Source: Escherichia coli
Lineage (GTDB): Bacteria; Pseudomonadota; Gammaproteobacteria; Enterobacterales; Enterobacteriaceae
Length of the DNA stretch: 64,000 bases
Assembly: GCF_045037415.1 (NCBI RefSeq)
Contig: NZ_CP173438.1
Direction: 5' to 3' (one strand)
Numbering within the stretch: position 1 is the stretch's first letter; every line of letters starts with the position of its first letter. Below, one piece after another: positions 38,949 through 42,534 of the stretch. The position numbers and the translations under genes are program-made. The notes beneath the pieces were generated by a model, which was not told where the DNA came from, ran no database searches, and worked only from the letters and a program-made list of their open reading frames with translations.

Positions 38949-39244
38949 ACTGTTTTCAGTTTGTGTGCGGATGTGCTTTCGATAACCCGATTCAGCGCCT
39001 AATTATGTTGCGTGTTTTGATGTCGGGTTCTTCAGACGGTGAAGGCGAGAGAGTTATTGATCATCAGGTGCTTGCTGATTTCTGCTGTTGTTCTAAGCAA
39101 GCGATATTCAGGGAAACCCTGGCACTGGAAAGAGCTGGTTATCTTCATATCCGAAAAATTGCAACGCTTACTATTGATGCAAAAGCCAGACTACAACCTG
39201 CGCGTGGCTACACAATTCTCATGCCGCGGAAGGAGGTTGTATGA
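38945..39244 (+). CDS. hypothetical protein, possible DNA-binding
   Basis: 99-aa ORF directly upstream of the replication module. Confidence 0.35.
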   Translation: MNCFQFVCGCAFDNPIQRLIMLRVLMSGSSDGEGERVIDHQVLADFCCCSKQAIFRETLALERAGYLHIRKIATLTIDAKARLQPARGYTILMPRKEVV

Positions 39245-40227
39245 GCCGTTACGCCCCCACACCGGAAGTTATGGCTATTGGTCAAATTAATATTTCCGGC
39301 AATGTTACACCTGCGAACTGGTGGAAATATATTCGACTACCCAGTGGGCGTCCGGATGCGACGGCTATCGCTCTGCTTTCAGAGATCGTTTACTGGTACC
39401 GCCCGACAGAGGTCAGGGATGAGCACACCGGAGCGTTGCTGGGATATCGCAAGCGTTTTCAGGGCGACAAACTGCAAAGAAGCTACCAGGCGTTTGCTGA
39501 GCAGTTTGGTTTCGGGAAAAGGGAAACCGCAGATGCGCTGAAGCGTCTGCGCGATGCAGGGTTTATTACTCTGGATTTACGCACGGTGGAAATGCTCGAT
39601 GGGGTGAAATGCAGCAATATTTTGTTTGTCGGGATCAACCCACAGGCAATTGCGGCCATCACCACACCTTCTTCTGTTTCGCCAGAAAGTAACAGCAATA
39701 ATGCAATCAGCGATACAGCTATTACGTTAAAACGGAACACCCCCCGACGTCATAACGGAACAGGGGATACGCCGAATGTTGATACAAATACAGAGATTAC
39801 TACAGAGATTACAACGGAGACTAAAAACACTATTGATGCATCCGCTGACGCGTCTGCGCGTTCTGCCCGACAGGAATATTCACCGGAATTTGAACAGGCC
39901 TGGCAGGAATATCCCAAACGTGCTGGTGGCAATTCCAAGTCAGCAGCCTTCAAAGCCTGGAAAGCCCGTATCAGGGAGGGAATAAAACCGGAGACCATGC
40001 TTGATGGCGTGAAGCGGTATGCCGCCTGGGTACGTGCTACAGGAAATACCGGCACACAGTTCGTGAAGCAGGCTGCGACGTTCTTTGGACCCGATCGTCA
40101 CTTCGAAGATTACTGGCAACAGCCAGCCGCTCACGGAGGTGGGCGACAGCGACAGGTCGATGTCCTGGCTGGCCTGGGAGCCATGTCTGACAAATTCGGT
40201 AAATCCAGTAACAAATTGACATTCTGA
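39241..40227 (+). CDS. replication initiator (lambda O-like position) with internal iteron-like repeats
   Basis: 328-aa ORF preceding the DnaC-like and DnaB-like genes; linker region TEITTEITTE encoded by the direct repeats cagagattac(ta) and cagagattac(aa). Confidence 0.55.
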   Translation: MSRYAPTPEVMAIGQINISGNVTPANWWKYIRLPSGRPDATAIALLSEIVYWYRPTEVRDEHTGALLGYRKRFQGDKLQRSYQAFAEQFGFGKRETADALKRLRDAGFITLDLRTVEMLDGVKCSNILFVGINPQAIAAITTPSSVSPESNSNNAISDTAITLKRNTPRRHNGTGDTPNVDTNTEITTEITTETKNTIDASADASARSARQEYSPEFEQAWQEYPKRAGGNSKSAAFKAWKARIREGIKPETMLDGVKRYAAWVRATGNTGTQFVKQAATFFGPDRHFEDYWQQPAAHGGGRQRQVDVLAGLGAMSDKFGKSSNKLTF

Positions 40228-40228
40228 G

Positions 40229-41137
40229 GTGACAGCGATGATGACGATTGACCAACGTGAGAAACAAACAAGACTACAGGCGCGAATGGATGAGTTACGG
40301 GCAGAAATGGATGAGTTACGGGCAGAGATTGCATTTGCTCAGAAGGGCGAAAAGCCATGGCCTTATCGTTCCTGCCTGATGCGTGAAGGTCGCGGATATT
40401 GCGAAAAACACGGTAAATATCGTACGCATATACTGGTGTGGATCGATCGTAATGGCGAGGACAGAGAAAAAATTTCATGCTGCCCTGACTGCTTGATCGC
40501 TGAGGCCAGTGATTTGACCATGGAACTGTCGTCCCTCAAGGCGGAAGAACTGACTGATAACGCCGGAATTGCTCTGCGTTTTCGGGACTGCGAGTTTGAT
40601 AATTATCTGGAGGTTAATCCTGACGCAGCCAGAAATCTTGCGGCCTGTCGCCGCTATGCGGAGAACTGGCCAGATATGCTGGAGAACGGTACCAGTCTTG
40701 TTATGACCGGCAGTTGCGGTACCGGGAAAAATCATCTGGCGGTATCAATGGCAAAACACATCATCCGTAACTATCTGGCCAGTGTGGAGATCACCGACGT
40801 GATGCGCCTTACCCGGGCTGTGAAAAACTGCTGGCGGAATGACAGTGAAAAAACAGCGGATGACGTCATTGAGCATTATGCGTCACTGGATTTGCTGATT
40901 GTCGACGAAGTCGGCGTTCAGTTTGGCAGTGCGGCTGAAATGGCCATTTTGCAGGAAATTATCAATGCCCGGTATGAGGGTATTTTGCCAACTATCCTGA
41001 TCAGCAACCTTTCACCGGAAGAATTGTGGGCGTTCATCAGTCCCCGGATTGCCGACAGGATCACCGATGGCGGGCGCAACTGGTTGTCGTTTAACTGGCC
41101 CAGCTACCGTTCTCGTATCGGAGGTGTTGCCGCATGA
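40229..41137 (+). CDS. DnaC-like helicase loader (AAA+ ATPase)
   Basis: 302-aa ORF with Walker A GSCGTGKNHL and Walker B LLIVDEVG. Confidence 0.75.
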   Translation: MTAMMTIDQREKQTRLQARMDELRAEMDELRAEIAFAQKGEKPWPYRSCLMREGRGYCEKHGKYRTHILVWIDRNGEDREKISCCPDCLIAEASDLTMELSSLKAEELTDNAGIALRFRDCEFDNYLEVNPDAARNLAACRRYAENWPDMLENGTSLVMTGSCGTGKNHLAVSMAKHIIRNYLASVEITDVMRLTRAVKNCWRNDSEKTADDVIEHYASLDLLIVDEVGVQFGSAAEMAILQEIINARYEGILPTILISNLSPEELWAFISPRIADRITDGGRNWLSFNWPSYRSRIGGVAA

Positions 41138-42534
41138 CCAGCCAGAACACCCCGGCATGGCGTAACGATGACCTGGAAGGCGCTGTCATCGGTGCGTTTT
41201 TTCTGCGTGGGGCCGATCCGGAAGTGATGGATATTCTGGCCACACTTCCGGCGGATGTATTTTTTGTGCGTCAGTACCGGGATATTTACGCGGGGATTTG
41301 CAGACAGGCTCGCATATCCGGCGTCATTGACCCCGTACTGCTGTGCAATGAGATGCCGGAACTTGCCCCGGTGATTACCGACACCGGACGCAAAACCTGG
41401 GTGAAGTCTTCACTGGAGCACTATGTCGCAGCGTTGCGGCGCAATGCCGCACTGCGTGATGCAGAAAAAACACTGACTGAAGCATTACAGAATTTACGTG
41501 ATGCGTATACCTGTGAAGCAGCCGAGGATGCCCTGAAGGATGCGCAGAACATGATGGCCTCACTGTCGACCGGAAAGGGCGTCATTCAGCCGGTTCACAT
41601 TGATGATGTCCTTCCGGAAGTGGTCGACCGTGTTGAATGCCGCAATCAGGGACTGGAGAAATCCAGGGCGCTGATGACCGGTATTGATGAACTGGACGCA
41701 AAAACGGGCGGTATGGAGCCCGGAGACCTGGTATTCATTGCCGCCCGTCCTTCGATGGGGAAAACCGAACTTGCGCTGGACATCATCGACAAGGTGACTG
41801 AGCAGGGGCATGGCGTGCTTCTGTTCACCATGGAGATGGCGAACATCCAGATTGGTGAACGTATGGTGTCTGCTGCCGGTGGAATGCCGGTATCCCGTCT
41901 TAAGTCTGTTGCCCGTTTTGAAGATGAAGACTGGGCGCGTTTCTCGCAGGGCGTGGGACGAATGACGGGGCGTAATATCTGGATGGTGGACCAGGCAAAC
42001 CTGACCATTGATGAGATATGTGCAACCACGAAGCACCACCGGATGAAGCATCCGGAAACGGCGCTGGTTGTGGTCGATTACCTCGGCCTGATTAAAACCC
42101 GCAGCACGGGGCGTCACGACCTTGCTGTGGGGGAAATCTCAAAGGGACTTAAAAGCCTGGCAAAATCCGGCGGTTTTCCGCTGATTGCTCTGAGCCAGCT
42201 CTCCCGTGGCGTGGAATCCAGACCCAATAAACGCCCAATGAACTCGGACCTGAAAAACTCCGGGGAAATCGAGGCGGATGCCGACATCATTCTGATGCTT
42301 TACAGGGAGGAGGTATACAACCCGGAAACTCAGGCCAGAGGCATAGCAGAAATCAACATCACGAAACAGCGTAATGGCACGCTCGGGACCATTTACCGGC
42401 GTTTTCATAACGGACATTTTCTGCCTGTGGACCAGGAGAGTGCCCGGGTTCTTTCCACACCAATGCAACAGCCCCAGCCGCGCAGATACAGCAACAAACG
42501 AACTGACAGCAGTAAGATGGAGCGTTTCTTTTGA
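41134..42534 (+). CDS. DnaB-family replicative DNA helicase
   Basis: 466-aa ORF with Walker A ARPSMGKTELALD and DnaB-like C-terminal domain motifs (VVVDYLGLI, LSQLSRG). Confidence 0.85.
   Translation: MTSQNTPAWRNDDLEGAVIGAFFLRGADPEVMDILATLPADVFFVRQYRDIYAGICRQARISGVIDPVLLCNEMPELAPVITDTGRKTWVKSSLEHYVAALRRNAALRDAEKTLTEALQNLRDAYTCEAAEDALKDAQNMMASLSTGKGVIQPVHIDDVLPEVVDRVECRNQGLEKSRALMTGIDELDAKTGGMEPGDLVFIAARPSMGKTELALDIIDKVTEQGHGVLLFTMEMANIQIGERMVSAAGGMPVSRLKSVARFEDEDWARFSQGVGRMTGRNIWMVDQANLTIDEICATTKHHRMKHPETALVVVDYLGLIKTRSTGRHDLAVGEISKGLKSLAKSGGFPLIALSQLSRGVESRPNKRPMNSDLKNSGEIEADADIILMLYREEVYNPETQARGIAEINITKQRNGTLGTIYRRFHNGHFLPVDQESARVLSTPMQQPQPRRYSNKRTDSSKMERFF

What the first reader, a model, noticed from the sequence alone, without database searches (positions are those of the whole stretch)
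40285..40326. Perfect 21-bp tandem duplication within the DnaC-like gene
aatggatgagttacgggcaga occurs twice in tandem, giving the protein repeat RMDELRAE-MDELRAE in the N-terminal coiled-coil region. It is an in-frame 7-codon duplication, probably a recent slippage event.
Basis: seen in the sequence. Interest (0 to 1): 0.15.

Follow-up and report, generated by a model that had tools for sequence, protein, structure and literature searches.

The report
Heptad duplication in prophage helicase loader
A perfect 21-base tandem duplication adds one seven-residue turn-pair to an N-terminal helix of a prophage DnaC-like helicase loader; it is real and widespread in E. coli, but it is an ordinary in-frame length polymorphism with no sign of a special function.

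Summary
AATGGATGAGTTACGGGCAGA occurs twice head-to-tail at 40285-40326, far beyond chance. It lies in frame in a 299-aa DnaC-like AAA+ helicase loader (40238-41137), between an initiator gene and a DnaB-family helicase gene of a lambdoid prophage.

The duplication is derived. Three sequenced phages and almost all other family members (292-293 aa) have one copy. E. coli 20AR0300 carries a one-copy allele identical to the window's gene at all 879 shared bases.

It is neither an artefact nor a private mutation. 142 of 5,426 complete E. coli genomes and 43 IMG/VR contigs carry the junction. It sits behind four different initiator types, and 13 genomes have one substitution in copy 1. No allele with three or more copies was found.

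The duplicated MDELRAE is one heptad of a confidently predicted helix (residues 4-36). In the model, that helix pairs antiparallel with helix 83-108 beneath a small Cys/His beta-domain.

Nothing points to a DNA-level role. The unit is unique in the window, and there is no AT-rich tract, promoter, terminator or hairpin nearby.

The junction has no microhomology, so "slippage" is inferred, not shown.

Verdict: a real, tolerated and ordinary polymorphism of low interest.

The parts
40285..40305 (+). Copy 1 of the 21-nt unit AATGGATGAGTTACGGGCAGA. It encodes the third base of R16, M17 to A22, and the first two bases of E23.
   Evidence: This is the copy that carries G->T (E19D) in 13 E. coli genomes.
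40306..40326 (+). Copy 2 of the 21-nt unit, identical to copy 1. It encodes the third base of E23, M24 to A29, and the first two bases of E30.
   Evidence: Alignments show the single copy in relatives against these positions, though which copy is 'extra' is formally arbitrary.
40238..41137 (+). DnaC-like AAA+ helicase loader gene, 299 aa, identical to RefSeq WP_000988266.1. The likely start is ATG 40238, with GAGG at 40226-40229 as the ribosome-binding site. The longest ORF begins at GTG 40229.
   Evidence: ORF list. RefSeq start in O55:H7, whose gene is 900/900 identical. Pfam IstB_IS21 and Bac_DnaA. phrog_50. E. coli DnaC 6QEL at 3.9e-29. Foldseek 6qem_G.
40247..40345 (+). Coding region for predicted helix alpha-1 (residues 4-36), which contains both repeat copies.
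   Evidence: AlphaFold2 full-length model with pLDDT 90.4 and N-terminal fragment model with pLDDT 85.8; both give H4-36 with block pLDDT 82-96. Conserved hydrophobic stripe at L13, L20/L27, I31, F33.
40376..40492 (+). Coding region for the small beta-domain (strands 47-55, 59-69, 75-79) and the family-invariant C55, H58, C82, C85, a putative zinc site, at the tip of the helical hairpin.
   Evidence: Zinc binding is inferred from the invariant Cys/His residues only.
39241..40227 (+). Upstream replication-initiator-like gene (328 aa). Its stop codon TGA (40225-40227) lies 10 nt before the loader's ATG.
   Evidence: phrog_270 'replication initiation protein' at 3e-75, with no Pfam or NCBIfam hit. 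Mosaic architecture.
41134..42534 (+). Downstream DnaB-family replicative helicase gene (466 aa). Its ATG overlaps the loader's stop codon (ATGA at 41134-41137).
   Evidence: Pfam DnaB_C at 9.8e-74 and DnaB N-terminal domain. phrog_19. ORF coordinates.

Best explanation
The repeat is a derived, in-frame tandem duplication of 21 bp inside a prophage gene for a DnaC-like helicase loader.

Shown: the ancestral state is one copy. The duplication adds exactly seven residues (MDELRAE) to a family whose N-terminal helix otherwise has a fixed length. The allele is stably inherited and has been shuffled among lambdoid replication modules.

Predicted from models: the seven residues are one heptad of helix alpha-1 (residues 4-36). 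This helix pairs antiparallel with helix alpha-2 (83-108) to form a stalk, with a Cys/His beta-domain at its tip and the AAA+ core below.

Inferred: because the insert is exactly one heptad, it continues the conserved hydrophobic stripe (L13-L20-L27-I31) in register. It lengthens alpha-1 by about two turns (about 10 Å) without breaking the fold. The loader therefore stays functional, and the allele behaves as a tolerated, near-neutral length polymorphism.

Also inferred: the most likely origin is a single strand-misalignment event during replication. A pre-existing weak 21-nt periodicity (TACAGGC ... TACGGGC, reflecting LQAR / LRAE) may have helped. The allele then spread by prophage transfer and recombination.
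For: - Real and non-random.
- Derived: phiP27, PhiR49_2 and Stx2_EH2201 have one copy in an otherwise colinear alignment.
- Unusual length: of 120 cluster representatives across Enterobacterales, 91 are 292-293 aa and only the window's own cluster is 299 aa. In the 71-sequence alignment the 7 inserted columns are filled by the query alone.
- Young on the substitution clock: the one-copy gene in 20AR0300 equals the window's gene at 879/879 positions. The identical helicase protein WP_000203849.1 sits beside both the one-copy and the two-copy loader.
- Established allele: 142 of 5,426 complete E. coli genomes carry the junction, as do 43 IMG/VR contigs. The exact protein was seen on at least 1000 contigs, against 328 for its one-copy twin.
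- Single origin with recombination: the junction is identical everywhere. All 5 differences in the O121:H19 allele match the Stx2_EH2201 one-copy states. The two-copy allele lies behind four initiator types.
- Persistence: 13 genomes have E19D in copy 1.
- Loader identity.
Against: - The junction has no microhomology (G|A on the left, A|G on the right). Neither strand folds better than shuffled sequence (z from -0.4 to +1.3). The slippage mechanism therefore has no specific support.
- Neutrality is inferred from persistence, not measured. The high share of two-copy alleles, about half of the genomes that carry the gene, may reflect oversampling of ST131, but positive selection is not excluded.
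- Whether these prophages still replicate is unknown.
- The hairpin packing rests on AlphaFold models whose coordinates I could not inspect. No solved structure covers the N-terminal 92 residues.
Confidence: 0.8

Rival explanations
1. Adaptive length change. The extra heptad lengthens the N-terminal stalk of the loader and changes how it engages the phage (or host) DnaB helicase, or lets it evade a host or rival-phage factor. The two-copy allele would then have been selected rather than merely tolerated.
For: The helix length is otherwise strongly conserved in the family, so a change of 7 residues is unusual. The allele is frequent (142 genomes; at least 1000 contigs) and has spread into four module backgrounds. 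From established knowledge of E. coli DnaC (6QEL/6QEM) and DnaI (4M4W), the N-terminal regions of these loaders are the helicase-binding parts.
Against: The identical helicase protein is paired with both the one-copy and the two-copy loader, so there is no partner co-variation. The one-copy twin is also common, at 328 contigs. Frequency is confounded by ST131 sampling. No functional data exist.
Confidence: 0.1
2. DNA-level element. The two 21-mers act as protein-binding sites (iterons of the phage origin or an operator) that happen to lie inside the coding sequence.
For: Lambdoid origins often lie inside replication genes and consist of direct repeats of about 20 bp (established knowledge for lambda ori in gene O). 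The 21-nt period is close to two helical turns of DNA.
Against: There are only two copies, and functional relatives have one. The unit occurs nowhere else in the window on either strand, even with 5 mismatches. There is no AT-rich tract; local GC is 0.43-0.52. No promoter or terminator is predicted and there are no inverted repeats. Better origin candidates lie in the initiator gene at 39724-39820.
Confidence: 0.03
3. Assembly or sequencing artefact. The true sequence would have one copy.
Against: The same junction is found in 142 independently assembled complete genomes, in 43 IMG/VR contigs, and in a protein seen on at least 1000 contigs. A sublineage also has a substitution in only one of the copies.
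Confidence: 0.01
4. Hypermutable contingency repeat. Copy number would switch frequently (1, 2, 3 and more) to modulate loader function.
For: One-copy and two-copy alleles exist on the same haplotype with no other difference, which frequent gain and loss would also produce.
Against: No allele with three or more copies was found in 5,426 E. coli genomes or in IMG/VR. The two-copy allele is stable enough to accumulate a substitution and to recombine into other backgrounds. All changes are in frame, so no on/off switch is possible.
Confidence: 0.04

Closest known systems
E. coli DnaC helicase loader (PDB 6QEL/6QEM; NCBIfam NF005931)
   Same: The AAA+ core and the preceding linker helix match. Residues 93-296 align to DnaC 44-242 at 3.9e-29. 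Foldseek gives TM 0.73 on the target over about 212 columns. Walker A (G158-N165) and Walker B (D218-E224) residues are invariant. The gene is adjacent to a DnaB-family helicase gene.
   Different: The score of 124.9 bits is far below the equivalog cut-off of 357. The N-terminal 92 residues (long helix, Cys/His beta-domain, second helix) have no counterpart in DnaC's short N-terminal domain and match no solved structure by sequence. The duplication lies in this non-homologous part.
Phage DnaC-like helicase loaders, PHROG phrog_50 (for example phiP27 L18, NP_543070.1)
   Same: This is the family the protein belongs to: 1.9e-87 over residues 17-297. The phiP27 gene is 93% identical at the DNA level and sits in the same initiator-loader-helicase order.
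   Different: phiP27 and the other sequenced phages have one MDELRAE heptad and 292 aa. No record in the phage collection carries the two-copy junction.
DnaI helicase loader of Firmicutes (PDB 4M4W, 2W58), with an N-terminal zinc-binding helicase-interaction domain
   Same: The general layout is shared: an N-terminal, probably metal-binding domain, then a linker helix, then a DnaC/IstB-clade AAA+ domain. The AAA+ domains match at 1e-3 by sequence and at 2.9e-8 by Foldseek.
In-frame tandem duplications and deletions from strand misalignment in bacterial and phage genes
   Same: Perfect head-to-tail copies, a length that is a multiple of three, a single copy in relatives, and one-copy and two-copy alleles on one haplotype.
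   Different: Textbook slippage events are flanked by short direct repeats. This junction has none. The 6-nt deletion in the neighbouring gene, by contrast, is flanked by GCGC/GCGC.

Membership tests
DnaC/DnaI/IstB-clade AAA+ helicase loader | AAA+ ATPase core with Walker A (GxxGxGK[N/T]) and Walker B (hhhhDE) motifs | tested here: met
   G158, G161, T162, G163, K164, N165 and D218-L-L-x-x-D223-E224 are invariant in 71 homologues. Pfam IstB_IS21 scores 53.1 bits against a cut-off of 24.1, and Bac_DnaA 25.8 against 23.
DnaC/DnaI/IstB-clade AAA+ helicase loader | Sequence and fold similarity to solved loaders | tested here: met
   6QEL DnaC at 3.9e-29. Foldseek 6qem_G at 6.9e-14, followed by Aquifex DnaC, IstB and DnaI.
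DnaC/DnaI/IstB-clade AAA+ helicase loader | Genomic pairing with a DnaB-family replicative helicase | tested here: met
   The helicase gene at 41134-42534 overlaps the loader's stop codon. DnaB_C at 9.8e-74.
DnaC/DnaI/IstB-clade AAA+ helicase loader | Loads the helicase onto DNA in an ATP-dependent manner | not testable with these tools
   Needs biochemistry.
Chromosomal DnaC (NCBIfam NF005931 equivalog) | Score at or above the curated equivalog cut-off | tested here: not met
   124.9 bits against a cut-off of 357. The protein is DnaC-like, not DnaC.
Coiled coil (antiparallel two-helix) | Long helix with hydrophobic residues recurring at a 7-residue period | tested here: met
   Helix 4-36. L13, L20/L27, I31 and F33 are 100% hydrophobic in the family. 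The 'a' position M17/M24 is hydrophobic in only 15% of homologues, so this is one stripe rather than a full a/d core.
Coiled coil (antiparallel two-helix) | Two helices packed side by side along their length | tested here: inconclusive
Slipped-strand tandem duplication | Perfect head-to-tail copies where relatives have one copy | tested here: met
Slipped-strand tandem duplication | Short direct repeat (microhomology) at the duplication endpoints | tested here: not met
   0 nt are shared at either boundary. There is only a weak 21-nt-spaced similarity, TACAGGC/TACGGGC, that does not coincide with the junction (family D4).
Origin iterons / operator repeats | Multiple conserved copies, usually next to an AT-rich tract, retained in related replicons | tested here: not met
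   Two copies here and one in relatives. No other copy in the window. GC 0.43-0.52.
DnaI-type N-terminal zinc-binding domain | Sequence match to the family, and zinc ligands | tested here: inconclusive
   No Pfam match at E<=10 and no PDB sequence match. However, C55, H58, C82 and C85 are invariant. Metal binding was not tested.

The most novel reading that the evidence does not exclude
The extra heptad is a selected 'ruler' change. By lengthening the antiparallel stalk of an uncharacterised N-terminal domain found in phrog_50 phage helicase loaders, it would retune how the loader docks on its helicase, or which helicase it can capture, whether the phage's own or the host's. That would give prophages carrying it, for example those in ST131, a replication or competition advantage.
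Probability: 0.08. Interest if true: 0.4.

Novelty: already known. Interest (0 to 1): 0.1.

Why it matters
It matters little. The finding is a clean, well-documented natural one-copy versus two-copy pair that differs by nothing else across 879 nt. That makes it a ready-made isogenic test of how much length change the N-terminal stalk of a phage DnaC-like loader tolerates. The 40-nt junction is also a simple marker for tracking this replication module among E. coli and Shigella prophages. The more interesting by-product is that the N-terminal 92 residues of this widespread loader family (helical hairpin plus an invariant Cys/His beta-domain) have no solved or annotated counterpart.

Tried and rejected
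- Coverage-based allele counting: synthetic one-copy and three-copy queries did not work as planned, because the tool joins split pieces into one place. I used record spans and piece counts instead, then a junction-centred 40-mer that gave a clean count.
- Hairpin-driven misalignment: DNA folding of both strands of both alleles gave nothing better than shuffles. Rejected.
- Unequal exchange at the TACAGGC/TACGGGC quasi-repeat (D4): this would give the junction ...TACGGGC|GCGAATGG, not the observed ...GGGCAGA|AATGG. Rejected.
- Iteron or operator reading: rejected.
- Alleles with three or more copies: none in E. coli complete genomes or IMG/VR.
- Other ORFs over the repeat (+ strand 40248-40379, 43 aa; - strand 40131-40478, 115 aa): treated as spurious, because the loader frame is the one conserved across the family.
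- Sequence search of the N-terminal domain against PDB and Pfam: only sub-threshold coiled-coil-type hits.
- Literature search for this loader's N-terminal domain: nothing specific found.
- Direct inspection of helix packing: not possible, because model coordinates are not exposed.

Full report
**1. Observation**

Window 40285-40326 reads AATGGATGAGTTACGGGCAGA twice, head to tail and 21/21 identical. Tandem Repeats Finder reports period 21, 2.0 copies, 100% matches and score 84, the best tandem in the 64-kb window.

The repeat is exactly 42 nt. The base before copy 1 is G and the base before copy 2 is A. The base after copy 1 is A and the base after copy 2 is G.

Chance is excluded. The analytic expectation is about 1.5e-8. 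In 100 Markov shuffles of the window, the longest perfect two-copy tandem had a period of 7-11, and 14 in one shuffle. The unit occurs nowhere else in the window on either strand, even with five mismatches allowed.

**2. Gene context**

The repeat lies in an ORF that ends at 41137. The longest ORF starts at GTG 40229. RefSeq starts the identical gene of E. coli O55:H7 RM12579 at the ATG that corresponds to 40238, giving 299 aa (WP_000988266.1, 'ATP-binding protein'). GAGG at 40226-40229 is a suitable ribosome-binding site for that ATG, as read from the sequence.

The protein is a DnaC-like AAA+ helicase loader:
- Pfam IstB_IS21 and Bac_DnaA score above their cut-offs.
- PHROG phrog_50 'DnaC-like helicase loader' matches at 1.9e-87.
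- Residues 93-296 align with E. coli DnaC residues 44-242 of 6QEL at 3.9e-29.
- Foldseek's best hits for the model are DnaC in the DnaB-DnaC complex, then Aquifex DnaC, IstB and DnaI.

It is not DnaC proper, because the NCBIfam equivalog scores 124.9 bits against a cut-off of 357.

Upstream lies a replication-initiator-like gene (39241-40227; phrog_270 at 3e-75). Downstream lies a DnaB-family helicase gene (41134-42534; DnaB_C at 9.8e-74) whose ATG overlaps the loader's stop codon. In related records the surrounding genes are Cro/Rha/Roi-type regulators, RusA, Q antiterminators and tRNAs. This is therefore the replication module of a lambdoid prophage.

**3. Direction of change**

In a colinear DNA alignment, phages phiP27, PhiR49_2 and Stx2_EH2201 have a single copy (...GCGCG|AATGGATGAGTTACGGGCAGA|GATTGC...), and their genes are 879 nt rather than 900.

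Among 120 cluster representatives from Escherichia, Klebsiella, Enterobacter, Salmonella, Citrobacter, Serratia and others, 91 are 292-293 aa. Only the window's own cluster contains a full-length protein of 299 aa. In a 71-sequence alignment, the seven inserted columns are occupied by the query alone. One copy is therefore ancestral and two copies derived.

**4. Age and spread**

The one-copy gene of E. coli 20AR0300 is identical to the window's gene at all 879 shared positions. It also sits next to the same helicase protein (WP_000203849.1) that accompanies the two-copy allele in O55:H7. On the substitution clock, the event, or its reversal, is therefore young.

The allele is nevertheless not new or private:
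- A junction-centred 40-mer, which one-copy genomes cannot match, hits 142 of 5,426 complete E. coli genomes. About 282 genomes carry the gene at all, so roughly half of the carriers have two copies.
- The same junction is found in 43 IMG/VR contigs. It is found in no record of the phage collection searched (INPHARED, GenBank phage records).
- The exact 299-aa protein was seen on at least 1000 contigs, including O25b:H4-ST131 and Shigella. Its one-copy twin was seen on 328 contigs.
- In 13 of the 142 genomes, copy 1 has a G->T change (E19D, giving MDDLRAE-MDELRAE).
- The O121:H19 two-copy allele differs from the window at five sites. All five are the states of the Stx2_EH2201 one-copy allele, which indicates a recombinant 3' end.
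- Across the IMG/VR loci, the two-copy allele lies behind four unrelated initiator N-terminal types and beside several helicase variants.

The most economical reading is one duplication event followed by vertical inheritance, prophage transfer and module recombination.

No allele with three or more copies exists in the E. coli genomes, where the best hit to a three-copy query spans only 132 nt, or in IMG/VR.

**5. What the duplicated residues are**

AlphaFold2 with a 71-sequence alignment gives a confident model (mean pLDDT 90.4). Its elements are helix 4-36, strands 47-55, 59-69 and 75-79, helix 83-107, and then the AAA+ core. An independent model of residues 1-125 gives the same elements (pLDDT 85.8).

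The two copies encode M17-E23 and M24-E30, in the middle of helix 4-36. The family-conserved hydrophobic residues form a single stripe (L13, L20, I24 and F26 in one-copy numbering). In the two-copy protein this becomes L13, L20, L27, I31 and F33, so the inserted heptad keeps the register.

C55, H58, C82 and C85 are invariant, which suggests a zinc site in the beta-domain at the tip.

No Pfam family matches the N-terminal 125 residues above threshold, and no PDB sequence matches the N-terminal alignment profile. The only Pfam hits are weak leucine-zipper-type matches over residues 4-35.

The coiled coil appears to be intramolecular and antiparallel.

**6. Mechanism**

Shown: this is a derived, in-frame, one-heptad insertion in a helix of conserved length, and it is stably inherited.

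Inferred: the insertion adds about two turns (about 10 Å) to alpha-1 while keeping its hydrophobic stripe in phase. In the one-copy protein, alpha-1 (26 residues) and alpha-2 (25-26 residues) are matched in length. In the two-copy protein, the N-terminal end of alpha-1 should overhang towards the AAA+ side. In E. coli DnaC and in DnaI, the N-terminal regions are the helicase-binding parts (established knowledge from 6QEL/6QEM and 4M4W), so an effect on helicase docking is conceivable. However, the same helicase protein accompanies both alleles, and both alleles are common, so tolerance or near-neutrality is the better-supported reading.

The mutational origin is most likely strand misalignment, but this is not demonstrated. 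There is no junctional microhomology and no significant hairpin. The only local feature is a weak pre-existing 21-nt periodicity (TACAGGC/TACGGGC, reflecting LQAR/LRAE) whose position does not match the junction.

**7. Rivals**

- Assembly artefact: refuted.
- DNA-level element such as iterons or an operator: not supported. The unit is single-copy in relatives and unique in the window, with no AT-rich tract, promoter, terminator or inverted repeat nearby.
- Contingency repeat: not supported. There are no alleles with three or more copies, the repeat is stable enough to diverge and recombine, and it is always in frame.
- Adaptive length change: not excluded, but without positive evidence.

**8. 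Comparison and verdict**

The gene belongs to the known phage DnaC-like loader family (phrog_50). The protein sequence is already in RefSeq and UniRef. The feature is an ordinary in-frame tandem-duplication polymorphism.

Interest is about 0.1.

Noticed in passing
window 39855-39856 (initiator-like gene 39241-40227): The window's copy lacks 6 nt (GCGCCA, the dipeptide 'AP') that O55:H7, 20AR0300 and three phages all have. The deletion lies between GCGC/GCGC direct repeats, as expected for a slippage deletion. It is a second in-frame indel in the same replication module.
   Followed up: partly
window 39789-39820: A perfect 12-nt tandem, TACAGAGATTAC x2 plus a partial third copy, encodes TEITTEITTET in the linker of the initiator-like protein. 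It is also present in O55:H7 and 20AR0300, and absent where the N-terminal half of the gene is of another type.
   Followed up: partly
window 39724-39762: Two 16-mers, ACGTTAAAACGGAACA and ACGTCATAACGGAACA, lie 23 nt apart in the lowest-GC (0.41-0.44), A-rich part of the initiator gene, just upstream of the 12-nt tandem. This is a candidate phage origin with iterons inside the initiator gene, as in lambda. Not tested.
   Followed up: no
window 39241-40227 versus L001, L002, L004: The initiator proteins are mosaic. Their N-terminal halves are unrelated between phages, while their C-terminal halves (from ...SADAS(AP)ARSARQEYSPEFEQ onward, about window 39830) are nearly identical. The recombination boundary sits just upstream of the loader gene, which explains how the two-copy loader allele came to lie behind four initiator types.
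   Followed up: partly
window 40238-40513 (loader residues 1-92): The N-terminal 92 residues of this widespread phage loader family consist of a helical hairpin plus a beta-domain with invariant C55, H58, C82 and C85. They match no Pfam family and no PDB sequence. This looks like an uncharacterised, probably zinc-binding, helicase-interaction domain.
   Followed up: partly
L001 3008-3886 (phiP27, NC_003356.1 P27p18): RefSeq annotates the phiP27 loader from an internal start (locus 3128, 759 nt). The conserved ATG used in all E. coli homologues lies 120 nt upstream and gives an intact 292-aa protein. The annotated phiP27 protein therefore lacks the helix that carries the MDELRAE heptad.
   Followed up: partly
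L008 and L009 (E. coli MS20645, SCU-387), loader gene 953-1852: A sublineage of 13 complete genomes carries a two-copy allele with G->T in copy 1 (E19D) and one further substitution at gene position 822. Here the allele lies behind a different, HTH-type initiator gene.
   Followed up: yes
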